64,000 bases of DNA, taken from positions 2,304,001 through 2,368,000 of the forward strand of contig OZ246001.1 in NCBI GenBank assembly GCA_965230295.1, read 5' to 3'. Positions 21,957 to 30,764 of the stretch are shown here, in pieces. How positions within the stretch are numbered: position 1 is the first letter of the stretch; each line of letters opens with the position of its first letter. The stretch is from Marinicella sp. GTDB taxonomy: Bacteria; Pseudomonadota; Gammaproteobacteria; Xanthomonadales; Marinicellaceae. The notes under the pieces are model-generated. The model searched no databases. It was not told the DNA's origin and worked only from the letters and a program-made list of their open reading frames with translations. The translations under genes were made by a program, and so were the position numbers.

Positions 21957-22067
21957 TAAGAGCGTTCTATTTATTAACAAACGTTGCCATCATCCTGATG
22001 CGGATTCTAAGGGTCTCCGAAAGGTTTTTTAAGAGGCAGTTTTGTTTTATTGATGTAAAATTAAACA

Positions 22068-22676
22068 ATGAAAAACTTAATTGTAATTATCGTTATAGCT
22101 GCCACATTTTTTGCGACGAAGTACTTCATGGCAGAGTCAGAGAAAGAAGAAGCGTTTAAGAATGCCAATGCGGAAATAGATGCCATCCGATCCGATGTGC
22201 GAAAAAATCAGCCTGATGAACCTGAGGTTTTGGCAATGCATGAGGCTGCTTCGAAGAAAATGATAGATAATATTAACGCCAAAGGCACAGCAAAAGAAAA
22301 ACAAAAAACCGCTGCTGGTTCATTCCTTGGGTATTACTTAGTCAATTACCGCCAGCGTGCTGAATATTGTAAAAATTTAGGTGTTGATATTAAGCCATTT
22401 ATTGATGTATTTAAGGCTTTACATGAAGCTGAATACGCGGTAGCGGTAAAGGCAGTAGCAGCGACACCTGAAAATGTTGATGAATTGTTTGTTGGTTTAC
22501 AACCGCAATTCGTTACTGTAATTGAACAAGACATGGCGTATATTGCCAACGAAAATGGCGTTTCTTTGGCAGAAGCCTGCCGTTTAATTTCAGACCATGC
22601 TGATATATTGGTGCCTGATATGCATATTGCACTGACTCAGCCAGCAGTTCATCAAGCTTTGATGGCTGGTGAGTGA
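22068..22676 (+). CDS. Hypothetical exported/membrane-anchored protein
   Basis: 202-aa ORF, N-terminal hydrophobic helix, two Cys; no family recognised. Confidence 0.7.
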   Translation: MKNLIVIIVIAATFFATKYFMAESEKEEAFKNANAEIDAIRSDVRKNQPDEPEVLAMHEAASKKMIDNINAKGTAKEKQKTAAGSFLGYYLVNYRQRAEYCKNLGVDIKPFIDVFKALHEAEYAVAVKAVAATPENVDELFVGLQPQFVTVIEQDMAYIANENGVSLAEACRLISDHADILVPDMHIALTQPAVHQALMAGE

Positions 22677-23190
22677 ACATCAGTTGATGAAGTTGATCAA
22701 ACCGACCATTGACCACCAAGACAGCTACCTGTCTTACATCGAAGAACTGGGCGAAGAAGAACGTTACCCTTTTCCACTGGATTTTGATCACAGTGATTTT
22801 TCAGCCTGGCTCAAGCGCGTGGCTGAATTTGAACAAGGGATTGAATTGCCATTGGGTTATGTGCCGAGCTCAACCTATTTTATGGTGAAAGATGGTGAAA
22901 TTTTAGGCGTCTCCAACTTGCGTCATGTAATGAATGATGCCTTGCTTGAAGCGGGTGGACACATCGGCTTGAGCACCCGACCCAGTCTGCGAGGACAAGG
23001 TTTGGGCATTGAACTGCTACAACTGACCTTGACTGAAGCCAACCAACTGGACATCAACGAAGTGCACATCCATTGTTATCATGACAATCCTGCTTCTGCC
23101 AAAATGATCGAAGCCTGTGGCGGGGTGTTGGATTCTGAATTCAAACCCGATGATGGGCCTGTGGTGCTGCGGTATGTGATTCGGCAGTAA
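22669..23190 (+). CDS. GNAT family N-acetyltransferase
   Basis: GGHIG...RPSLRGQGLG, N.ASAKMIEACGG. Confidence 0.88.
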   Translation: MSEHQLMKLIKPTIDHQDSYLSYIEELGEEERYPFPLDFDHSDFSAWLKRVAEFEQGIELPLGYVPSSTYFMVKDGEILGVSNLRHVMNDALLEAGGHIGLSTRPSLRGQGLGIELLQLTLTEANQLDINEVHIHCYHDNPASAKMIEACGGVLDSEFKPDDGPVVLRYVIRQ

Positions 23191-23209
23191 TTGCAGTGAT
23201 TTCTAATCA

Positions 23210-23403
23210 TGTCATTGCCACGGCGTTTCACGCCTCGCAATGACATCCTTTTCTACCATCATCCTCGGGCTTCCTTAAGGGACCTACTTTTGGTGACCCG
23301 GGGATCCATTGAGAGAACATTGCGTGATGATTTCACAATGGTATAAGACGCTTTGCGTGTTTGCTTCGCAAACTGGATCCCGGACCAAGTCCGGGATGAC
23401 GAC
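23210..23403. repeat. REP/RPE-like palindromes (GTCATTGC...GCAATGAC and ATCC..GGATCCA / TGGATCCCGG..GATGAC)
   Basis: tgtcattgcc...cctcgcaatgaca (23210-23245); catcctcggg...cccggggatcca (to 23308) facing tggatcccggaccaagtccgggatgac (23374-23400). Confidence 0.8.
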
Positions 23404-23465
23404 TTCTTAGAGCCATCTAAATTTTGGATCGATTCAAAAAAATCACCCTCATTACAAAAAAACAT

Positions 23466-23495
23466 TTGCCACTTTTGAAAAAAGCGTGTTACATT
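23466..23495 (+). promoter_or_regulatory. Putative sigma70 promoter of the arg leader/operon
   Basis: TTGCCA-N18-TACATT with an extended TG, 25 bp before the leader ATG. Confidence 0.45.
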
Positions 23496-23520
23496 ACGAG
23501 CAAATCACTACTTAAGACAT

Positions 23521-23628
23521 ATGCAACAACCAACCAACAACTTGTTTAAATCAAACAGCTCATTGCCAAACAGCAATGCAGTGGTTGTTCGTCGTCGCCG
23601 TATTCAGGACATAGGTGTTCTTTGGTAG
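23521..23628 (+). CDS. Arginine operon leader peptide (35 aa, MQQPTNNLFKSNSSLPNSNAVVVRRRRIQDIGVLW)
   Basis: Short ORF with cgt-cgt-cgc-cgt at 23590-23601 (its only Arg codons), directly upstream of a terminator and the arg biosynthetic genes. Confidence 0.8.
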   Translation: MQQPTNNLFKSNSSLPNSNAVVVRRRRIQDIGVLW

Positions 23629-23656
23629 GCGTGTGATTAAGTAAAAACTAAATTCG

Positions 23657-23685
23657 AAAACCCGGCCAAAGAGCCGGGTTTTTTT
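23657..23685 (+). terminator. Attenuator terminator of the arg leader
   Basis: aaaacccggc-caaaga-gccgggttttttt between the leader stop and the argF' start; alternative pairing with gttctttggt (23617-23626). Confidence 0.88.
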
Positions 23686-23734
23686 ATACCCCGCTTTTTG
23701 GCTTTATTAAGAGACCTCATGAGAGGAATGAACC

Positions 23735-24754
23735 ATGATAAAGCATTTTATAAGCACCGAAGACTGGACCCAGACCGAACTCGAGTCGTTACTCGATGTG
23801 GCTGGCTACCTGAAACAACACCCGATTCACAATCACCTGGCCGGCAAGTCGATTGCTTTGCTGTTCCTCAACCCTTCGATGCGTACCCGAACTTCTTTTG
23901 AACTGGGTATGCAACAACTCGGTGGTATGGCCATTGTGCTGCAACCTGGTCAGGATGCCTGGGGCATAGAGTTCGAGCCCGGTGTCGTCATGGATGGCAC
24001 TGCCGAGGAACACATCAAAGAAGTGGCCGGTGTGTTGTCTTCGTATGTCGACATGATTGCTATCAGGGCTTTTCCTGCTTTCCAGGATTGGTCCAAAGAC
24101 AAGCTCGACCACCAGATAAAAGGCCTGGCGGCTCATGCCTCGGTACCAGTGATCAACATGGAAACCATCGTGCATCCTTGTCAGGAGTTGGCCTTGATGA
24201 TGACCATCAAGAAACATCTGGGCAACCCAGCCAAAAAGAAATTCGTCCTGACCTGGACCTACCACCCCAAACCATTGAACACCGCGGTGGCCAATTCTGC
24301 CTTGTTGATCAGCAGCAAATTCGGTATGGACGTAACCTTGTTGTGTCCCAATGAGCATTACCTGCTGGATTCCCATTACCTGGATGTGGCCCAAGCTCAG
24401 TGTCAGGCCCATGGCAGTGATTTTCAGGTCACCCATGACATCGAAGCCGCTTATTCAGGCGCGGATTATGTCTACGCCAAGAGCTGGGGGGCTTTGCCGT
24501 TTTATGGAGATCCAGTCGCTGAATTTGAACAGCGCAAACAGTACCAGCATTTCATTGTGGATGGCGCCAAGATGGCCATGACCAACCAGGCCAGGTTCAG
24601 CCATTGTTTGCCCTTGCGCAGAAACATCAAAGCCACCGACGAGGTGATGGATGCCGATTACTGCGTGGCCTTGGAAGAAGCCGAAAACCGACTGCATGTG
24701 CAAAAAGCGTTGATGCTTAGGCTCATGAACAAAGAATTACAGACAACAGATTAA
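23735..24754 (+). CDS. argF: N-acetylornithine carbamoyltransferase (ArgF', Xanthomonas type)
   Basis: SMRTRTSF, HPCQ, LTWTYHPKPLNTAV, HCLPLRRN. Confidence 0.93.
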   Translation: MIKHFISTEDWTQTELESLLDVAGYLKQHPIHNHLAGKSIALLFLNPSMRTRTSFELGMQQLGGMAIVLQPGQDAWGIEFEPGVVMDGTAEEHIKEVAGVLSSYVDMIAIRAFPAFQDWSKDKLDHQIKGLAAHASVPVINMETIVHPCQELALMMTIKKHLGNPAKKKFVLTWTYHPKPLNTAVANSALLISSKFGMDVTLLCPNEHYLLDSHYLDVAQAQCQAHGSDFQVTHDIEAAYSGADYVYAKSWGALPFYGDPVAEFEQRKQYQHFIVDGAKMAMTNQARFSHCLPLRRNIKATDEVMDADYCVALEEAENRLHVQKALMLRLMNKELQTTD

Positions 24755-24764
24755 GGAATTTAAC

Positions 24765-25967
24765 ATGAAAAATAAAACCATTGTTTTGGCATTCTCAGGT
24801 GGGCTAGATACCAGTTTTTGCCTGCATCAACTGACCCAACAAGGCCATCAAGTACACACCGTGTTTGTCAATGCCGGCGGCATCACGTCCGAAGGCATAC
24901 AAGCCATCGAGCAACACGCCATGGCCCTGGGCAGCTACCAACACCACACCATCAATGCACAACAAGCGATTTGGGATGAATTTGTCAAACCACTGATCTG
25001 GTCCAAAGCCAAGATGCGTGGTGAATACCCACTGCTGTGTTCAGACCGTTATGTGATCGTCAAGTTATGTTTACAGCTGTGCGATCAGTTGAACACACCG
25101 TATTTTGCCCACGGTTGTACTGCCATGGGTAATGATCAGTTCCGCTTCGATCAAACCGTACACTCGTTGGGTGACTACCAAATCATCGCCCCGATCAGGG
25201 ATTTACAAGCCCAAGTCAGTGGCAACATCCGAGACCATGAACTGCAGGTGTTGAAACAAGCTGGCTTCGATATGGCCGGTCAGCATGAAAAGTACTCGAT
25301 CAATGAAAACATGCTTGGTGTGACCGTTTCCGGCAGTGAGATCGATCAGTTCCAGGCGCCGACCGAGGACAGCCTGTGTTGGGTCAAACCCAAATCAAGC
25401 TGGCCAGAACAAGCCCTGGAATTGCAACTGACCTTCAACGGTGGGGTCGCCACCCATTTGAACGGCAAAGCCATGGCCGGCCCAGACATGTTGCATGTCT
25501 TGAACACCCAATTGGCCGCTTATGGCATCGGCAGACACATTTACACCGGTGATGTCAGCATTGGCTTGAAAGGCAGGATCGCTTTTGAGTGCCCTGGCAT
25601 CGATGGGTTGATGCAAGCGCACAAAGCCCTGGAAGATTTGGTCAATTCGAAGCTACAAAATCAATTCAGGGCCCAAGTGGCAGAAAGGTGGGGAGAATTG
25701 GTGTATCAAGGTTTCTTTTATGAACCACACAAAGCCGACCTGGAAGCCTATTTGGCCAGTTCACAATCCCATGTGACCGGTACAGTGACTTTGAGTACCG
25801 CTGGCGGTGCATTGTTGGCCACCGCCGTCGATTCACCTTTTATCATCCAGGACCAAGCTTCGATCTATGCCCAATCCTGTGATTGGTCGCCGGCCGAAGC
25901 TTTGGGCTTCATCAAATTAACCGGCCAAAGTGCCACACTCGTCAACCACGTCAGGAGGGCCTCATGA
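24765..25967 (+). CDS. argG: Argininosuccinate synthase
   Basis: AFSGGLDTS, AHGCTAMGNDQFRF, YSINEN, GLKGR..FECPG. Confidence 0.93.
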   Translation: MKNKTIVLAFSGGLDTSFCLHQLTQQGHQVHTVFVNAGGITSEGIQAIEQHAMALGSYQHHTINAQQAIWDEFVKPLIWSKAKMRGEYPLLCSDRYVIVKLCLQLCDQLNTPYFAHGCTAMGNDQFRFDQTVHSLGDYQIIAPIRDLQAQVSGNIRDHELQVLKQAGFDMAGQHEKYSINENMLGVTVSGSEIDQFQAPTEDSLCWVKPKSSWPEQALELQLTFNGGVATHLNGKAMAGPDMLHVLNTQLAAYGIGRHIYTGDVSIGLKGRIAFECPGIDGLMQAHKALEDLVNSKLQNQFRAQVAERWGELVYQGFFYEPHKADLEAYLASSQSHVTGTVTLSTAGGALLATAVDSPFIIQDQASIYAQSCDWSPAEALGFIKLTGQSATLVNHVRRAS

Positions 25968-27094
25968 ACCAGCAAGCCTCAGCAGTCGCACTGCCAACGA
26001 AACACAGCGAAGCCGCAGCGGCGGAATGGACCTTGATCAAACAGCATTTGAGTTTTTTGATCGCACAAGACACCTGTAACCCGCCCAGGCAGATCAAGTT
26101 CACCGACCCCATTTTTGTGGGTTTAGAAGCGTTCTTTAAAGCCCAACAATTTACCGTCACCATGGCAGATTTTGGTGACGGGCATGTGGCCTTTTATGCT
26201 GTCAGGGGTGCATCCGACATCCTGTTCAATGTGCACCTGGACACCGTACCCGTCTCAGAGGGTTGGTCCAGTGATCCCTTCCAATTAACCGAAGCCGGCG
26301 GCAAAGTCTATGGCAGGGGCGTCTGTGACATCAAAGGCGCAGCGGCCTGTTTGATGGCCCTGGCCGAAAACACCAGCCATGACATGGCGGTGTTGTTCAC
26401 CACCGATGAAGAAGGTATGAACAGTTGTTGTATCCAAAACTACATTGATGGCCATGACCTGTCTGTTTACCAGCAGGTGGTGGTGGCTGAACCCACCGAT
26501 TGCCAGGCGGTGTTGGAACACCGTGGTTATGTGTCTGCCCATGGTCATTTCCACGGCCAAAGTGGTCATTCATCCTCGGTCAATGCGTTGACCGGTAACG
26601 CCGTTCACCAAGCGAATTGTTGGCTCCACCATGCCATCTCATTGGCAGCCAATGAAAAGACGGCCAGCAATCCACCCGGCATTTGTTTTAACCTGGGCTA
26701 CATCAAAGGCGGTGAGAAAAACAACATGATCGCCGAAAGCTGTCAGTTGGGTTTCAGTGTCAGGGTGCCAGCTGGTACTTCATCGATGGGCACATACAAG
26801 GCTTTGATTAAGGCAACAGATAACCAAGCTGAATGGCACTGGACCATGATGGCTCCGGCGCTGCCTGAACAGCCTGAAAGTAAACTGGCAGCGGCCGCCT
26901 TTTGCCAACAACATGACTTACCCGTCGGCGCACCGGTTGATTTCTGGACCGAAGCGGCTTTGTTTGCGGCCGCTGGGGTGCCTGCTTTGGTGTTGGGACC
27001 TGGTGACATTGCCCAAGCCCACACCGTGGATGAATGGGTGGCGATTGAGCAACTGACCACCTGTTATCAGTTGTATGAGGGCCTGCTGTCATGA
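25964..27094 (+). CDS. argE: Acetylornithine/acetylcitrulline deacetylase (M20)
   Basis: HLDTVP, GRGVCDIKG, DEE, AEPT, AHTVDE; ATG at 25964 overlaps the argG stop. Confidence 0.9.
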   Translation: MNQQASAVALPTKHSEAAAAEWTLIKQHLSFLIAQDTCNPPRQIKFTDPIFVGLEAFFKAQQFTVTMADFGDGHVAFYAVRGASDILFNVHLDTVPVSEGWSSDPFQLTEAGGKVYGRGVCDIKGAAACLMALAENTSHDMAVLFTTDEEGMNSCCIQNYIDGHDLSVYQQVVVAEPTDCQAVLEHRGYVSAHGHFHGQSGHSSSVNALTGNAVHQANCWLHHAISLAANEKTASNPPGICFNLGYIKGGEKNNMIAESCQLGFSVRVPAGTSSMGTYKALIKATDNQAEWHWTMMAPALPEQPESKLAAAAFCQQHDLPVGAPVDFWTEAALFAAAGVPALVLGPGDIAQAHTVDEWVAIEQLTTCYQLYEGLLS

Positions 27095-28461
27095 ATGCCT
27101 TGAAAACCATGCCGCATGGTCTGATCCAAAGTGCTTTGCAGTCGTTGACCAACAGCCAAGAAGCCAAGCACTACTTGACCCGTTTTCACAACAACGAACT
27201 GCGTTTTGCGGTGGTCAAAGTCGGTGGCGGTACCTTGGCCAATGAGTTGGCTGAATTGACCCAATCCTTGGCCTTACTGGCGCATTTGGGTTTGACGCCT
27301 ATTATCATCCACGGTGCTGGGATTCAATTGGACCAAGCGATTGATCAGGCCGGTATCACCACCATCAAAAAAGATGGTTTAAGGGTCACCGATGCGGCCA
27401 CCATGCAGGTGGTCAGGCCGGTGATGTATGAAGTCAACCAACAACTGGTCGCAGCTCTAGAAGCCCAAGGGGTGCGAGCCACCGGTGTGGTGCATGGGGT
27501 GTTTGAATGTGATTACCTGGACCAAGATCAATATGGTTTGGTTGGTGAGGTTAAAAACATCCACCTCTCACCCATCAAGCAGGCATTACAAATGGGCCAT
27601 GTGCCAGTACTCAGTTGTTTGGGCGAAACCGCCAGTGGTCAGGTGGTGAATATCAACGCCGACATCGCCACCCGTGAGTTGGTGTGGCAGATCAACCCAC
27701 ACAAGATCATCTTTGTCACGCCCACCGGCGGTCTGTTGGACCAAGATCAGCAGATCATCTCGGCCATCCATTTGCACAACAGCTACGACCAGCTGATGCA
27801 AGCAGACTGGTTACACTCAGGGATGAAACTGAAACTGGAACAGATCAAACAAATGCTCGAGCCGATGGACTCTGGTCATTCGGTGTCGATCACCTCCAGT
27901 CAGAACCTGACCCGTGAACTGTTCACCCACCAAGGGGCTGGTACTTATATCAACATGGGTGAACAGATCCATGCGCATGATGCCTTGAATCCGGCCTTGG
28001 AAGCTGAGCTGATGGCTTTGTTTGAACACAGTTTTGGGCAACAATTCCAAGCGGGGTTTTTACAGTCGTTGCCGATCAAGGCCATTTACCTGGCTGAATC
28101 GGGTAGAGCAGCGGCCTTGGTGACCGAAGGGTTCCGTGGCCATGCCTACCTGCATAAATTCGCGGTGACACCGGCAGCCCAAGGGGAGGGCTTGGCCAGT
28201 GCCTTGTGGCGCACCATCAAGCAAAACCACCCGCAGATGTATTGGCGTTCCAGACAGAGCAACGCCATCAACGGCTGGTATTTCAAACAAGCCGAATGCG
28301 CGATCAAGGCGCCCGCGGCAGCCGGTGCCTGGGTCGGTTTTGCCTGTGGCTTGTTCCCGGCCGAAGCCATGACCTGCATGCACCATGCCTTCACCGAAGA
28401 TTCGGGCTGGCAGTCAACGGTTGTTGATGAACTTGAAATCAGGGAGCAGAAACATGCCTAA
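27091..28461 (+). CDS. argB: Acetylglutamate kinase with C-terminal NAT (DUF619) domain, Xanthomonas-type bifunctional NAGS/K
   Basis: VVKVGG, HGAG, GLRVTD, NINAD; C-terminal YLHKFAV...AQGEGL, WRSR..N.IN.WY. Confidence 0.9.
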   Translation: MNALKTMPHGLIQSALQSLTNSQEAKHYLTRFHNNELRFAVVKVGGGTLANELAELTQSLALLAHLGLTPIIIHGAGIQLDQAIDQAGITTIKKDGLRVTDAATMQVVRPVMYEVNQQLVAALEAQGVRATGVVHGVFECDYLDQDQYGLVGEVKNIHLSPIKQALQMGHVPVLSCLGETASGQVVNINADIATRELVWQINPHKIIFVTPTGGLLDQDQQIISAIHLHNSYDQLMQADWLHSGMKLKLEQIKQMLEPMDSGHSVSITSSQNLTRELFTHQGAGTYINMGEQIHAHDALNPALEAELMALFEHSFGQQFQAGFLQSLPIKAIYLAESGRAAALVTEGFRGHAYLHKFAVTPAAQGEGLASALWRTIKQNHPQMYWRSRQSNAINGWYFKQAECAIKAPAAAGAWVGFACGLFPAEAMTCMHHAFTEDSGWQSTVVDELEIREQKHA

Positions 28462-29476
28462 GTTTGAACATACAGCAGTGATCAAGGCTGCCATTGTTGG
28501 CGCCAGGGGCTATGTCGGGGTGGAACTGATCGGTTTGTTGGATCAACATCCTCAAGTTGAATTGATGGGTGTGTATTCCAGGGCCTATGCCGGACAAACC
28601 GTGCAATCGATGTTACCGAGTTTTTCTGATCCTGAACTGACCTATTCGGTCTGTGAATTTGAGCAGCTGCCGCACATGGATTTGGATGTGTTGTTCTTGG
28701 CTTTGCCTGATGGTGTGGCTAAACAGCATGCCGAGCTGTGGCACCAAATGGCGGCTGAAACTGTGGTCATTGATTTGAGTGCCGATCACCGCTTTGATGA
28801 CCACTGGACCTATGGTCAGTCGGAAACCAACACCGAAGCTTTGGGTCAGGCCCACTTGATCGCCAATCCTGGCTGTTATGCGACCGGCATGCAGTTGGGT
28901 TTGTTGCCTTTGTTGCCGTATTTGGATGATGAACATGATGTGCCGACTGCTTTTGGCATTTCAGGTTACAGTGGTGCGGGCACCAATCCATCGGACAAAA
29001 ACAACCCGGATCGTCTTGCAGATAACATCCTGGCCTACAAACCCACCGGTCACACCCATGAAAAAGAGGTGTCGCATGTGTTGGGACACACCCTGCGTTT
29101 CATGCCACATGTGGCGGCACATTTCCGAGGTATTCATTTGACCTTGTCGGGGAAATTGAACCTGACCTTAACTGCTGAAGAAGTTCAAAAGACCTTTGAG
29201 CAGTTTTACCAACCGCATGCATTGATCGAGGTGCAAAAGGCACCGACTGAAATCCAGCAGGTCTCAGAACAGCACCACGTGGTTATAGGCGGTTTTGCCT
29301 GTTCGGTTTCCGAACCGGGTCATTTTGTCATCAATGTGGCCCTGGATAATTTACTCAAAGGTGCGGCCACCCAGGCTGTGCAAAACATGAACCTGGCTTG
29401 TGCCTCCGAATTTGGCACCAGCTTATTTGATGGAATCAACCATGAAGAACAACCAAAAAGAAAACTTGAAGCATGA
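28454..29476 (+). CDS. argC: N-acetyl-gamma-glutamyl-phosphate reductase
   Basis: GARGYVG, DLSADHRF, ANPGCYAT, SGYSGAG, DNLLKGAATQA. Confidence 0.95.
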   Translation: MPKFEHTAVIKAAIVGARGYVGVELIGLLDQHPQVELMGVYSRAYAGQTVQSMLPSFSDPELTYSVCEFEQLPHMDLDVLFLALPDGVAKQHAELWHQMAAETVVIDLSADHRFDDHWTYGQSETNTEALGQAHLIANPGCYATGMQLGLLPLLPYLDDEHDVPTAFGISGYSGAGTNPSDKNNPDRLADNILAYKPTGHTHEKEVSHVLGHTLRFMPHVAAHFRGIHLTLSGKLNLTLTAEEVQKTFEQFYQPHALIEVQKAPTEIQQVSEQHHVVIGGFACSVSEPGHFVINVALDNLLKGAATQAVQNMNLACASEFGTSLFDGINHEEQPKRKLEA

Positions 29477-30764
29477 ACAGGCGGTCCTCTGGGCCACCCA
29501 AGGTGCGCAACAACTGGCCCCCGGCGTGATGGCTTACCTGGCTGGCGAAGATGTGCTGCTGGATCAAGCACTGTTTCTCTACGACATCCAAGGCACCCAG
29601 GCCCACATCATCGGATTGGCTGAAATAGGCTTGATCACGGCTGAAGAGTTGGACCAATTCATTCAAGCTTTGGCCGATTTAACCACCGCCTATCAGAACC
29701 AAGACTTCGTTTTGGACAATCGATTCGAAGACGGTCATTCAGCCATTGAGTTTTACCTGACCGAACAGCTCGGAGAACTCGGTAAAAAAGCCCACACTGG
29801 AAGATCCAGGAATGACCAAGTGTTGACCTGTTTGCGCCTCTACATGCAAGACCAGCTGTCGGTGGTCAAGCAACAGACCTTCGACATCATCAATGTGTTG
29901 ATGGATTTGGCCGAGCAGCACAAGGGTTCACTGATGCCTGGCTACACCCACCTGCAAAGGGCCATGCCCAATACTGTGGCGGTGTGGCTATTGGGTTATG
30001 CTGAAAGCCTGTTGGATGGCATGCATCACTTGAGTGGTTTACAACAACTGTTCGATGCCTCGCCCTTGGGCACTGCGGCTGGATTTGGCGTGCCCTTGCC
30101 TTTGGCCAGAGAGACAGCAGCCGAGGCCATGGGCTTTTCCCGGGTGCAGATCAACCCCTTTGCCGCCCAGAACTCCAGAGGCAAATACGAGCTGATGTGC
30201 CTGCATGGCCTGAGCTACCTGATGTTGGATGTGAGGAGGTTGGCCTGGGATTTGAGCTTGTTCATGACCAGCGAGTTTGATTTCATCCAAATGGGCACCA
30301 GCCACACCACCGGCTCATCGATCATGCCCAATAAAAACAACCCCGATGTGGTCGAACTGATGCGTGCCAGCCTGTCGGTGGTCGATGGTGCCGTACAACA
30401 AATCCAGTCCCTGTTGTCCTTACCCAGTGGTTACCAACGTGACCTACAAATGAGCAAAGGCCCCCTGATCAAAGGCATGCAAATGACCCGACAAACCCTG
30501 GCCCTCTTGCCTGGTTTGCTAAAAGCGCTGACTTTTAAAACCGACCACATGCAAGCCGCCATCACCGATGACATGATGGCCACTGACCAAGCCCTGGCCA
30601 AAGTCAAACAAGGCCAATCGTTCCGAGATGCCTACCTCGACAGCAAATCAATCGAAAGTAACACCATCACTGCCAAAGATTCGATTGAACAAAGGGTGTC
30701 GCTTGGAGGTGCGGCCAATTTGGGGTTGGAGCTGTTGCAGGAGCGTTTGGCCGAACTTCAATAA
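29442..30764 (+). CDS. argH: Argininosuccinate lyase
   Basis: HTGRSRNDQV, GYTHLQRA, GSSIMPNKNNPD. Confidence 0.95.
   Translation: MKNNQKENLKHEQAVLWATQGAQQLAPGVMAYLAGEDVLLDQALFLYDIQGTQAHIIGLAEIGLITAEELDQFIQALADLTTAYQNQDFVLDNRFEDGHSAIEFYLTEQLGELGKKAHTGRSRNDQVLTCLRLYMQDQLSVVKQQTFDIINVLMDLAEQHKGSLMPGYTHLQRAMPNTVAVWLLGYAESLLDGMHHLSGLQQLFDASPLGTAAGFGVPLPLARETAAEAMGFSRVQINPFAAQNSRGKYELMCLHGLSYLMLDVRRLAWDLSLFMTSEFDFIQMGTSHTTGSSIMPNKNNPDVVELMRASLSVVDGAVQQIQSLLSLPSGYQRDLQMSKGPLIKGMQMTRQTLALLPGLLKALTFKTDHMQAAITDDMMATDQALAKVKQGQSFRDAYLDSKSIESNTITAKDSIEQRVSLGGAANLGLELLQERLAELQ

What the first reader, a model, noticed from the sequence alone, without database searches (positions are those of the whole stretch)
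23521..23690. Arginine-codon leader peptide with a classical transcription attenuator upstream of the arg biosynthetic operon
Seen: a 35-aa ORF (23521-23628, below the ORF-track cutoff) whose only Arg codons are four in a row (23590-23601). Segment 1:2 can fold as cgcc..tatt..aggaca-tagg-tgttct..ggta-ggcg (23596-23631). Segment 2 (gttctttggt, 23617-23626) can instead pair with gccaaagagc (23665-23674), which destroys the terminator aaaacccggc/gccgggttttttt (23657-23685). A ribosome stalled on the Arg codons would mask segment 1 and free segment 2. Established: this geometry defines the trp/his/thr/leu/ilv/phe attenuators, whereas arg biosynthesis is normally controlled by ArgR; no ARG-box-like TGAAT..ATTCA was seen here. 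Inference: Arg-tRNA-sensing attenuation. I do not know of a well-characterised example for an arg biosynthetic operon, but I could not check the literature.
Basis: partly seen in the sequence, partly recalled or inferred. Interest (0 to 1): 0.92.

Follow-up and report, generated by a model that had tools for sequence, protein, structure and literature searches.

The report
Arginine-codon leader attenuator of arg operon
A short upstream reading frame with four arginine codons in a row, followed by a switchable transcription stop signal, most likely lets this bacterium and its whole order (including Xanthomonas and Stenotrophomonas), which lack the usual arginine repressor, turn arginine synthesis genes on when arginine runs low.

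Summary
Window 23521-23628 encodes a 35-aa ORF whose only Arg codons are CGT CGT CGC CGT (23590-23601). An intrinsic terminator follows (23657-23685), 49 nt before argF'-argG-argE-argB-argC-argH. The interpretation, classical ribosome-mediated attenuation reading Arg-tRNA supply, is strongly supported by comparison but is not tested experimentally.

- **Conservation:** 28 of 30 ArgF'-anchored loci in the order carry an Arg-run leader ORF.
- **Geometry:** In 27 of 27 analysed loci, RNA 3' of an Arg-stalled ribosome pairs a stop-codon-proximal segment with the terminator's 5' arm.
- **Covariation:** That pairing and the terminator covary at the same column.
- **Coding signature:** A block in eight high-GC relatives varies at codon positions 1/2/3 in 1/0/8 of 10 columns.
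- **No repressor:** ArgR is not found in this complete genome. In the order it appears only in one family, which has a classical OTC and lacks this ArgF' type (one locus read).

The homologous RNA in Xanthomonas is already in Rfam as the "sRNA" Xoo5 (RF02242). It has been seen on Northern blots but never linked to arginine in the papers I could read. Ten literature searches found no described Arg attenuator of arg biosynthesis. Verdict: real, and a new member of a known kind.

The parts
23466..23495 (+). Putative sigma-70 promoter: -35 TTGCCA, 18-nt spacer, extended -10 TGtTACATT. The inferred start is near 23502, giving a 5'UTR of about 19 nt with no clear Shine-Dalgarno sequence.
   Evidence: 9 of 12 matches, TG present; 1 site found versus 1.4 expected, so weak alone. 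The TGTTACATT and CAAATCAC blocks recur in most of the 12 same-genus sequences printed, as seen by eye and not counted.
23521..23628 (+). Leader ORF, 35 aa plus TAG.
   Evidence: Same-genus relatives have 34-40 aa ORFs ending ...VVVRRRR(R)P...ELFG*.
23590..23601 (+). Four consecutive Arg codons, CGT CGT CGC CGT (the regulatory codons). They lie inside segment 1.
   Evidence: Conserved. CGT and CGC make up about 42% of Arg codons in a rough long-ORF count, and there is one tRNA-Arg(ACG) gene.
23536..23589 (+). Upstream helix: AACAACT (23536-23542) pairs with GGTTGTT (23583-23589). It may explain the conserved DNL and VVV codons in the genus.
   Evidence: Consensus fold of 11 same-genus leaders, (7 pairs, no compensatory change).
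23590..23631 (+). 1:2 hairpin. The conserved core is CGTC (23590-93) with GGCG (23628-31) and GCCG (23597-600) with TTGG (23622-25). The window adds AGGACA (23606-11) with TGTTCT (23616-21).
   Evidence: In 20 of 27 loci the MFE pairs at least 4 segment-2 bases with the Arg-codon region.
23617..23629 (+). Segment 2 (GTTCTTTGGTAGG). It overlaps the leader stop codon and starts 15 nt after the last Arg codon.
23661..23674 (+). Segment 3 (CCGGCCAAAGAGC): the top of the terminator 5' arm, the loop, and 2 nt of the 3' arm. It pairs with segment 2 to form the antiterminator.
   Evidence: the RNA from 23612 to 23674 folds with 2:3 as MFE, -17.4 kcal/mol.
23657..23685 (+). Intrinsic terminator (3:4): a 10-bp stem, a 6-nt loop and T7.
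   Evidence: Conserved with compensatory changes across the order.
23688..23703 (+). Segment 5 (ACCCCGCTTTTTGGCT). It can pair with 23664-23679 in read-through RNA (-23.9 kcal/mol) and is followed by TTATT. Its role is unexplained.
   Evidence: All 12 same-genus loci examined can form it, at -20.7 to -30.1 kcal/mol.
23735..30764 (+). Regulated operon: argF' (23735-24754), argG (24765-25967), argE (ends 27094), argB/NAGS-K (27091-28461), argC (ends 29476), argH (ends 30764).
   Evidence: NCBIfam hits, (for example NF003384 at 4.4e-159 for ArgF'). ORF coordinates. The true starts of argE, argC and argH are probably downstream of the listed first start codons.

Best explanation
This is a leader-peptide (ribosome-mediated) transcription attenuator that couples expression of argF'GEBCH to the supply of charged tRNA-Arg.

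Transcription starts near 23502 and a ribosome translates the 35-codon leader.

- **Arginine plentiful:** the ribosome runs to the TAG at 23626 and covers segment 2. The 3:4 terminator forms and RNA polymerase stops at the T-tract, 49 nt before argF'.
- **Arginine scarce:** the ribosome stalls on the four CGY codons. This masks segment 1 but leaves segment 2 free, since it begins 15 nt downstream. Segment 2 pairs with segment 3 as soon as segment 3 is transcribed. This pre-empts the terminator, and polymerase reads into the operon.
- **No translation:** the 1:2 hairpin forms and the terminator again wins.

Shown here are the sequence parts, their alternative pairings, their conservation and covariation, the coding signature of the leader, and the lack of ArgR. 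Inferred are translation of the leader, Arg-specific stalling, and kinetic pre-emption of the terminator.
For: 1. **Anatomy and genes:**
2. **Conservation:** of 30 ArgF'-anchored loci (own plus 29 relatives), 28 have an Arg-run short ORF followed by a terminator upstream of argF'. These come from 10 of the 11 families that have this ArgF' type.
3. **Spacing:** in 26 of 27 analysed loci the best 14-nt partner of the terminator 5' arm starts 6-18 nt after the last Arg codon, at or beside the leader stop codon.
4. **Antiterminator fold:** when only RNA 3' of an Arg-stalled ribosome is folded, up to 2 nt into the 3' arm, 27 of 27 loci pair 7-14 bases of the arm and loop with that segment.
5. **Covariation on 14 non-genus loci:**
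   - Antiterminator: 84.7% of cells paired versus 18-63% when slid. One column pair is UA in 7 and CG in 6 sequences. 0 of 500 shuffles reach the score.
   - Terminator: 95.9% paired. The same column of the 5' arm is AU in 7 and GC in 6.
6. **1:2 hairpin:** it includes the Arg codons in the genus consensus and in 20 of 27 MFEs.
7. **Coding signature:** in 8 high-GC loci found through ArgF' alone, the block ASGMTSRARR varies at codon positions 1/2/3 in 1/0/8 of 10 columns.
8. **ArgR absent:**
   - ArgR N- and C-terminal domains are not found in the 97.9%-complete single-contig genome.
   - In 151 genomes of the order, ArgR scores above cut-off only in family f11 (17 of 17).
   - The one f11 genome in the ArgF' search (G034) gave only a 37%-identical OTC-type hit. 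In that locus argR lies divergently upstream of an aminotransferase-like ORF and that OTC-type gene, and the intergenic region holds A/T-rich palindromes and no leader.
9. **Homologous RNA exists in Xanthomonas:** Rfam Xoo5 hits cover the leader in 2 of 13 unnamed loci and 8 of 11 named loci. Liang et al. 2011 (passages read) mapped its 5' end and saw it on Northern blots. The model's first base lies 2 nt before the leader ATG.
10. **Other attenuators in the same genome:** there are His-, Thr-, Leu-, Ile/Val- and Trp-run short ORFs before terminators.
Against: - There is no experiment on arginine dependence or on leader translation for any member.
- The window's leader has no clear Shine-Dalgarno sequence. 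However, Xanthomonas shows no SD consensus and 14% of its mRNAs are leaderless (abstract and passages).
- Whole-leader MFE folds keep the terminator even with a ribosome mask, because 5' RNA pairs across the mask.
- The full 3' fragment prefers the terminator (-19.5 to -23.2 kcal/mol) over the antiterminator (-17.4), so the switch must be kinetic.
- Per-sequence duplex scores against shuffles are modest: window 3/100, L015 20/100, L019 43/100 (only 20 loci were scored before the script stopped).
- Within the genus there is almost no covariation: 1 of 26 pairs has a double change.
- The tool itself warns that related sequences can beat shuffles without any structure.
- Two of 29 relatives (L017, L029) show no leader.
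- The cloned 3' end of Xoo5 lies about 35 nt before the terminator T-tract. The Northern sizes (~130 and ~100 nt) are shorter than the ~158 nt expected for an attenuated transcript.
- Peptide-level conservation around the Arg run is not required by the simple model.
Confidence: 0.8

Rival explanations
1. The region encodes a trans-acting small RNA (the Xoo5 family) with its own terminator. The short ORF and its Arg codons are incidental or secondary.
For: Rfam types RF02242 as 'Gene; sRNA'. Liang et al. saw discrete ~130 and ~100 nt bands.
Against: - The element always lies 83-257 nt upstream of argF' on the same strand. This holds in 75 of 80 pattern-found loci; the other 5 are cut short.
- The ORF shows a coding signature.
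- The Arg run is kept while the rest of the sequence diverges beyond recognition between families.
- An attenuated leader transcript looks exactly like an sRNA on a Northern blot.
- A dual role is not excluded.
Confidence: 0.05
2. The nascent leader peptide itself senses free arginine or a related metabolite and arrests the ribosome, as in the fungal arginine attenuator peptide or SpeFL. Codon-level tRNA-Arg sensing is not the signal.
For: Selection acts on the peptide, not only on the Arg codons. ASGMTSRARR varies almost only at third positions. AVVVRRRRP is conserved in the genus, and a Pro follows the Arg run in most leaders.
Against: - The geometry fits starvation-induced stalling. A stall at the Arg codons frees segment 2 and gives read-through, so an arginine-induced arrest there would switch the operon on when arginine is high. 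That is the wrong sign.
- There is no similarity to the SpeFL family (0 Pfam hits; the family name comes from the paper read).
- The genus and the high-GC families share only the Arg run.
Confidence: 0.07
3. This is a leader terminator that responds to general translation or transcription coupling (growth rate, or a nucleotide pool as in pyrBI) and not specifically to arginine.
For: Any slowing of the leader ribosome before segment 2 would give read-through. No experiment shows specificity.
Against: The Arg run is the only feature of the peptide shared by all families. It sits at the distance needed for the switch. The operon is the arginine pathway.
Confidence: 0.05

Closest known systems
Leader-peptide transcription attenuators of the trp, his, leu, thr, ilv and phe operons of Enterobacteria (Rfam Trp_leader, His_leader and others)
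   Same: A short ORF with tandem codons of the end-product amino acid. Segments 1-4 with alternative 1:2, 2:3 and 3:4 pairings. The stop codon lies at segment 2, and an intrinsic terminator precedes the first structural gene.
   Different: - The amino acid read is arginine. I know of no characterised case for it (recall) and found none in 10 searches.
- There is no significant sequence or CM similarity: Trp_leader 21.3 bits versus 41 needed, Phe_leader 22.6 versus 55.
- In this genus segment 2 pairs with the top of the 5' arm plus the loop, rather than with the whole arm.
Rfam RF02242, Xanthomonadaceae sRNA Xoo5 (Liang et al. 2011, BMC Genomics 12:87)
   Same: It holds the same position upstream of argF' and the same Arg-run ORF in same-order relatives. 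Hits of 61-147 bits were found in Xanthomonas, Pseudoxanthomonas, Stenotrophomonas, Thermomonas and Lysobacter records.
   Different: - It is catalogued as an sRNA gene. The paper text holds 'arginine', 'leader' and 'argF' zero times.
- The model stops before the terminator.
- The window itself does not match the model at E up to 10.
speF leader orf34/SpeFL of Salmonella and E. coli (Ben-Zvi et al. 2019, PLoS Genet; abstract and passages read)
   Same: An upstream ORF in which consecutive Arg codons report arginine supply through ribosome progression and alternative mRNA folds.
   Different: It has two Arg codons. It controls a polyamine gene, not arg biosynthesis. Its outputs are Rho termination and RNase G decay, not an intrinsic terminator. 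The peptide family is unrelated.
ArgR repressor with ARG boxes
   Same: It has the same physiological job, repressing arg biosynthesis when arginine is plentiful. In this order it is found only in the family sampled without this ArgF' type; the one locus read there shows no leader.
   Different: It is a protein-DNA mechanism. Neither the gene nor the boxes are found here.
Fungal arginine attenuator peptide (arg-2/CPA1 uORF); recalled, not examined here
   Same: An upstream ORF that controls an arginine pathway gene in response to arginine.
   Different: It is eukaryotic. Arrest depends on the nascent peptide and acts on translation. It has no terminator and no Arg-codon run.

Membership tests
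Leader-peptide transcription attenuator (trp/his type) | Short upstream ORF with tandem codons for the pathway's end product | tested here: met
   35 aa with RRRR at 23590-23601. 28 of 30 loci have an Arg run.
Leader-peptide transcription attenuator (trp/his type) | Intrinsic terminator between the leader ORF and the first structural gene | tested here: met
   -17.6 kcal/mol, z -4.4. Present in all 27 analysed loci.
Leader-peptide transcription attenuator (trp/his type) | Antiterminator (2:3) mutually exclusive with the terminator and supported by covariation | tested here: met
   Caveat: the covariation comes from 14 related sequences.
Leader-peptide transcription attenuator (trp/his type) | 1:2 hairpin that includes or adjoins the regulatory codons | tested here: met
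   Seen in 20 of 27 MFEs. In Xanthomonas-type loci segment 1 lies just 3' of the Arg codons.
Leader-peptide transcription attenuator (trp/his type) | Spacing such that a ribosome on the regulatory codons frees segment 2 and a ribosome at the stop codon covers it | tested here: met
   15 nt in the window and 6-18 nt in 26 of 27 loci. The stop codon lies inside or next to segment 2.
Leader-peptide transcription attenuator (trp/his type) | The leader is translated | tested here: inconclusive
   Only indirect evidence: third-position variation of 1/0/8 and a conserved frame and stop. There are no ribosome data.
Leader-peptide transcription attenuator (trp/his type) | Read-through rises on starvation for the cognate amino acid | not testable with these tools
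   This needs experiments.
Rfam RF02242 Xoo5 | Covariance-model score at or above 50 bits | tested here: not met
   The window has no Xoo5 hit at E up to 10. Relatives score 61-147 bits.
ArgR/ARG-box control | argR gene in the genome and ARG boxes at the promoter | tested here: not met
   PF01316 and PF02863 give 0 hits. No box with up to 3 mismatches lies in 22064-28428 (the consensus was recalled).
T-box leader | Match to the T-box model | tested here: not met
   Not among the 13 Rfam matches at E up to 10.
SpeFL/DUF2618 arrest peptide | Pfam family match | tested here: not met
   0 Pfam families for three leader peptides at E up to 10.

The most novel reading that the evidence does not exclude
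The leader peptide is not a passive string of codons. Its conserved residues (ASGMTSRARRP in the high-GC families, AVVVRRRRP in this genus) may act inside the ribosome tunnel to set or gate stalling on the Arg codons. That would make it a hybrid between classical attenuation and an arrest peptide, translated in Xanthomonas from an almost leaderless transcript. In this genus a fifth segment may add a second terminator, overlapping the first, that the same antiterminator also blocks.
Probability: 0.12. Interest if true: 0.8.

Novelty: new member of a known kind. Interest (0 to 1): 0.64.

Why it matters
Textbook lists of attenuated amino-acid operons do not include arginine, which is taken to be under ArgR control (recall).

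Here a whole order lacks ArgR in most families. It includes Xanthomonas, Stenotrophomonas, Lysobacter and their marine or low-GC relatives. It appears instead to use an Arg-codon leader in front of the unusual argF' (N-acetylornithine carbamoyltransferase) operon.

This would do three things:
- It gives a concrete, testable answer to how these bacteria regulate arginine synthesis.
- It would re-assign a catalogued sRNA of unknown function (Xoo5) to a cis-acting leader.
- It shows that public annotation either misses the leader peptide or calls it 'hypothetical protein'.

Tried and rejected
**Rfam.** The window region gave no family at gathering score. Only weak matches driven by the terminator appeared.

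**Terminator scanner.** The simple scanner missed the terminator, so I relied on folding instead.

**Whole-leader folds with a ribosome mask.** These did not show the antiterminator, because RNA 5' of the ribosome was allowed to pair across it. I replaced them with folds of the RNA 3' of the ribosome.

**Per-locus shuffle controls.** Controls for the 2:3 duplex were weakly discriminating in GC-rich loci, so I relied on position and covariation.

**5'-end helix.** A possible helix between the 5' end (AAATCAC) and GTGATTT after the stop codon was examined. By my reading of the printed rows, it is kept in 8 of 11 genus sequences, shows no compensatory change and is broken in 3. I left it as unexplained.

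**Expression.** No RNA holder was listed for the window stretch.

**Peptide families.** NCBIfam and Pfam gave 0 families for three leader peptides.

**Literature.** Ten searches found no description of an Arg leader attenuator of arg biosynthesis.
- Naville & Gautheret 2010: passages searched, 'arginine' occurs 0 times.
- Leyn et al. 2016: passages only, nothing on this order.
- Seliverstov et al. 2005: passages, arginine mentioned only for T-boxes.
- Xu et al. 2009: passages, only speA.
- Supplements were closed and may hold relevant tables, for example the cloned sequences of Liang et al.
- Subscription-journal papers such as Vitreschak et al. 2004 are not held. I recall no arginine case in that paper.

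**Rejected: chance ORF.** Ruled out by conservation.

**Rejected: terminator of the upstream gene.** The upstream ORF ends at 23190, about 465 nt before the terminator.

Full report
**What is in the window.** Between a GNAT-type ORF ending at 23190 and argF' at 23735 lies a 544-nt spacer. It holds the following parts.
- A promoter-like site: TTGCCA, 18 nt, TACATT with an upstream TG, at 23466-23495. This is a weak match on its own.
- A 35-codon ORF at 23521-23628 encoding MQQPTNNLFKSNSSLPNSNAVVVRRRRIQDIGVLW. Its only Arg codons are CGT CGT CGC CGT at 23590-23601.
- A hairpin, AAAACCCGGC-caaaga-GCCGGGTTTT, followed by seven T (23657-23685). Alone it folds at -17.6 kcal/mol, z -4.4, with 0 of 200 shuffles as good.

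The downstream genes are N-acetylornithine carbamoyltransferase (NF003384, 4.4e-159), argininosuccinate synthase, acetylornithine deacetylase, the long acetylglutamate kinase form, argC and argH.

**The alternative folds.**
- The RNA that would be free 3' of a ribosome stalled on the second or fourth Arg codon was folded up to 23674. Its MFE has segment 2 (23617-23629) paired with 23661-23674, at -17.4 kcal/mol.
- Once the 3' arm is present, the terminator fold is somewhat more stable, at -19.5 to -23.2 kcal/mol. As I recall for the trp leader, the switch would therefore be kinetic: 2:3 forms first.
- A ribosome at the TAG (protecting roughly 23611-23638) covers segment 2, and the terminator then forms.
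- Whole-transcript MFE folds with a mask did not show the antiterminator, because 5' RNA pairs across the masked ribosome. I count this against the simple thermodynamic picture.

**Conservation.**
- The ArgF' protein was searched in 41 genomes: the window's own, 23 of the same genus, 1 of the same family and 16 of the same order. It matched in 34, and 30 loci were returned.
- Upstream of argF', 28 of the 30 loci have a short ORF with an Arg run followed by a terminator.
- In the genus the ORFs end ...(A/T)VVVRRRR(R)P....ELFG*. Other families have ...SRRRRAVF..., ...APRRRRMSQQWAG*, ...NPRRRRVSQSTAG* and ...VVRRRPRPR.... Five high-GC families have ...ASGMTSRARR(P/R)....
- L017 and L029 show no leader. 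L030 has the same leader peptide as L013 and was dropped from later counts, leaving 27 loci.
- Terminator arms differ between families (CCCGGC, CCCAGC, CCTGGC, GCCCAGC). A segment at the leader stop codon changes with them.

**Covariation.** The test used a MAFFT alignment of the 14 non-genus loci.
- Antiterminator helix: 84.7% of cells paired, against 18-63% when the partner is slid by 1-3 columns. One column pair is U-A in 7 and C-G in 6 sequences. 0 of 500 shuffles reach the covariation score.
- Terminator helix: 95.9% paired. The same 5'-arm column is A-U in 7 and G-C in 6 sequences.
- So one arm column covaries with both of its alternative partners.
- Most unpaired cells come from four sequences in which the GGCCGG register is shifted by one column (my reading).
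- The tool warns that relatedness alone can beat shuffles, so the slid controls are the more telling ones.
- Within the genus the sequences are too similar to show covariation: 1 of 26 pairs has a double change.

**Geometry across loci.**
- The best partner of the terminator 5' arm starts 6-18 nt after the last Arg codon in 26 of 27 loci. In L022 the search picked the Arg codons themselves.
- In 27 of 27 loci the post-ribosome fold pairs 7-14 arm and loop bases with a segment lying between -15 and +21 nt of the stop codon.
- In 20 of 27 loci the ribosome-free MFE pairs at least 4 bases of that segment with the Arg-codon region. In the Xanthomonas-type loci segment 1 is instead the CCCAC just 3' of the Arg codons, still inside a stalled ribosome's footprint.

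**Is the leader translated?** The evidence is only indirect.
- In the 8 high-GC loci that were found through ArgF' alone, the ten codons ASGMTSRARR vary at first, second and third positions in 1, 0 and 8 columns.
- This is a coding signature. It also shows selection on the peptide itself, which the simple codon-counting model does not require.
- The window's leader has no clear Shine-Dalgarno sequence.
- In Xanthomonas the Rfam Xoo5 model, built on a 5'-RACE-mapped RNA, begins 2 nt before the leader ATG.
- Schmidtke et al. 2012 (abstract and passages) report no SD consensus and 14% leaderless mRNAs in X. campestris pv. vesicatoria.

**No ArgR.**
- Neither ArgR domain is found in this single-contig genome, which is 97.9% complete. 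The control genomes scored as expected.
- Among 151 genomes of the order, ArgR scores above cut-off in 17, all in family f11 (17 of 17). One sub-threshold hit lies in f9, and 0 of 17 genomes in the window's family have it.
- The one f11 genome in the ArgF' search (G034) gave only a 37%-identical, OTC-type hit rather than the ArgF' type.
- In that locus argR lies divergently upstream of an aminotransferase-like ORF and the OTC-type gene. The intergenic region holds A/T-rich palindromes and no leader (argR and OTC positions; the aminotransferase label and the box reading were made by eye).
- No ARG-box-like site lies near the window's arg promoter.
- In a sample of 250 genomes spread over the class, the ArgF' type (E at or below 1e-90) occurred only in 3 genomes, all of this order.

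**Link to a known RNA.**
- Rfam RF02242 (Xoo5, 'Gene; sRNA') hits the leader in 2 of 13 unnamed relatives.
- It also hits 8 of 11 named records: X. vasicola, X. campestris, X. euvesicatoria, Pseudoxanthomonas, two S. maltophilia, Thermomonas and Lysobacter. It does not hit the Luteimonas, Rhodanobacter or Dokdonella records tried.
- Of the 80 loci returned, 75 have an ArgF' homologue 83-257 nt downstream on the same strand. The other 5 are cut off less than 300 nt after the match. This set was chosen by the motif, so it speaks to specificity and not to conservation.
- Liang et al. 2011 (passages read) verified sRNA-Xoo5 by 5' RACE and Northern blot. The cloned form is 124 nt, with bands of about 130 and 100 nt, and the longer band was seen only in early growth.
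- Their text holds 'arginine', 'leader' and 'argF' zero times.
- The cloned 3' end lies about 35 nt before the T-tract, and the bands are shorter than the ~158 nt expected. This fits processing or rough sizing, but it is not a clean match.
- The 33-aa Xanthomonas ORF is in public databases only as 'hypothetical protein'. The window's peptide is not in that collection. No NCBIfam or Pfam family covers these peptides.

**Other points.**
- A genome-wide scan found this to be the only short ORF with four consecutive Arg before a terminator-like hairpin. It also turned up His-, Thr-, Leu-, Ile/Val- and Trp-run candidates, so attenuation seems common in this organism.
- In a rough count, CGT and CGC are the commonest Arg codons, and there is one tRNA-Arg(ACG) gene.
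- In all 12 same-genus loci, the sequence after the T-tract can pair with the loop and 3' arm of the terminator, at -20.7 to -30.1 kcal/mol. In 8 of the 12 it is followed by TTTATT or TTTATC. Its role is open. It may be a second terminator sharing segment 3, or a fold of the read-through RNA.

**Verdict.** It is a textbook mechanism applied to an amino acid for which I found no described case. It is conserved over a large and well-studied order, and its Xanthomonas homologue appears to be catalogued as an sRNA of unknown function rather than as a leader. What is missing is any experiment on arginine dependence.

Noticed in passing
window 23664-23703: A fifth segment after the T-tract (ACCCCGCTTTTTGGCT) pairs with the terminator loop and 3' arm, at -23.9 kcal/mol, stronger than the terminator itself. 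All 12 same-genus loci can form it, and 8 of them follow it with TTTATT or TTTATC. It may be a second, overlapping terminator or a read-through fold.
   Followed up: partly
window 23503-23509 and 23633-23639: AAATCAC near the predicted transcript start is complementary to GTGATT(T) just after the leader stop codon. By eye it is kept in 8 of 11 genus sequences, broken in 3, and shows no compensatory change.
   Followed up: partly
loci L019, L022-L028; named loci L031-L110: The peptide block (A)SGMTSRARR(P) is conserved at the amino-acid level with free third positions. In Xanthomonas the mapped 5' end lies 2 nt before the ATG, so the leader is near-leaderless.
   Followed up: partly
genome G000, outside the window (about 2073056 and 2073193 on the minus strand; 1348225 plus; 1184334 minus; 1339025 minus; 2244384 plus): Candidate His (two in tandem), Thr/Ile, Ile/Val/Leu, Leu and Trp leader peptides before terminator-like hairpins. 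The downstream genes were not checked.
   Followed up: no
same-genus genomes G002, G005, G009, G011, G015, G016, G021 (no hit); G008, G014 (only weak hits): Nine of 23 same-genus genomes gave no ArgF'-type match. Five of them are listed as 97-99% complete (G002, G008, G014, G015, G021). These species may lack the pathway.
   Followed up: no
L151 (G034:C17) 1360-1425: In the ArgR-bearing family, the divergent argR/aminotransferase-like intergenic region carries TGCATAATATGCG and TCGCATTTTATGCAA palindromes. These look like ARG-box variants and there is no leader (judged by eye).
   Followed up: no
window 23376-23399: A GC-rich inverted repeat, TCCCGGAC-caag-TCCGGGA, lies upstream of the arg promoter with no T-tract. 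It was seen and not analysed.
   Followed up: no
L004 (same-genus relative), between terminator and argF': About 200 nt of extra sequence separates the leader terminator from argF' in this one relative, against 35-61 nt in the others.
   Followed up: no
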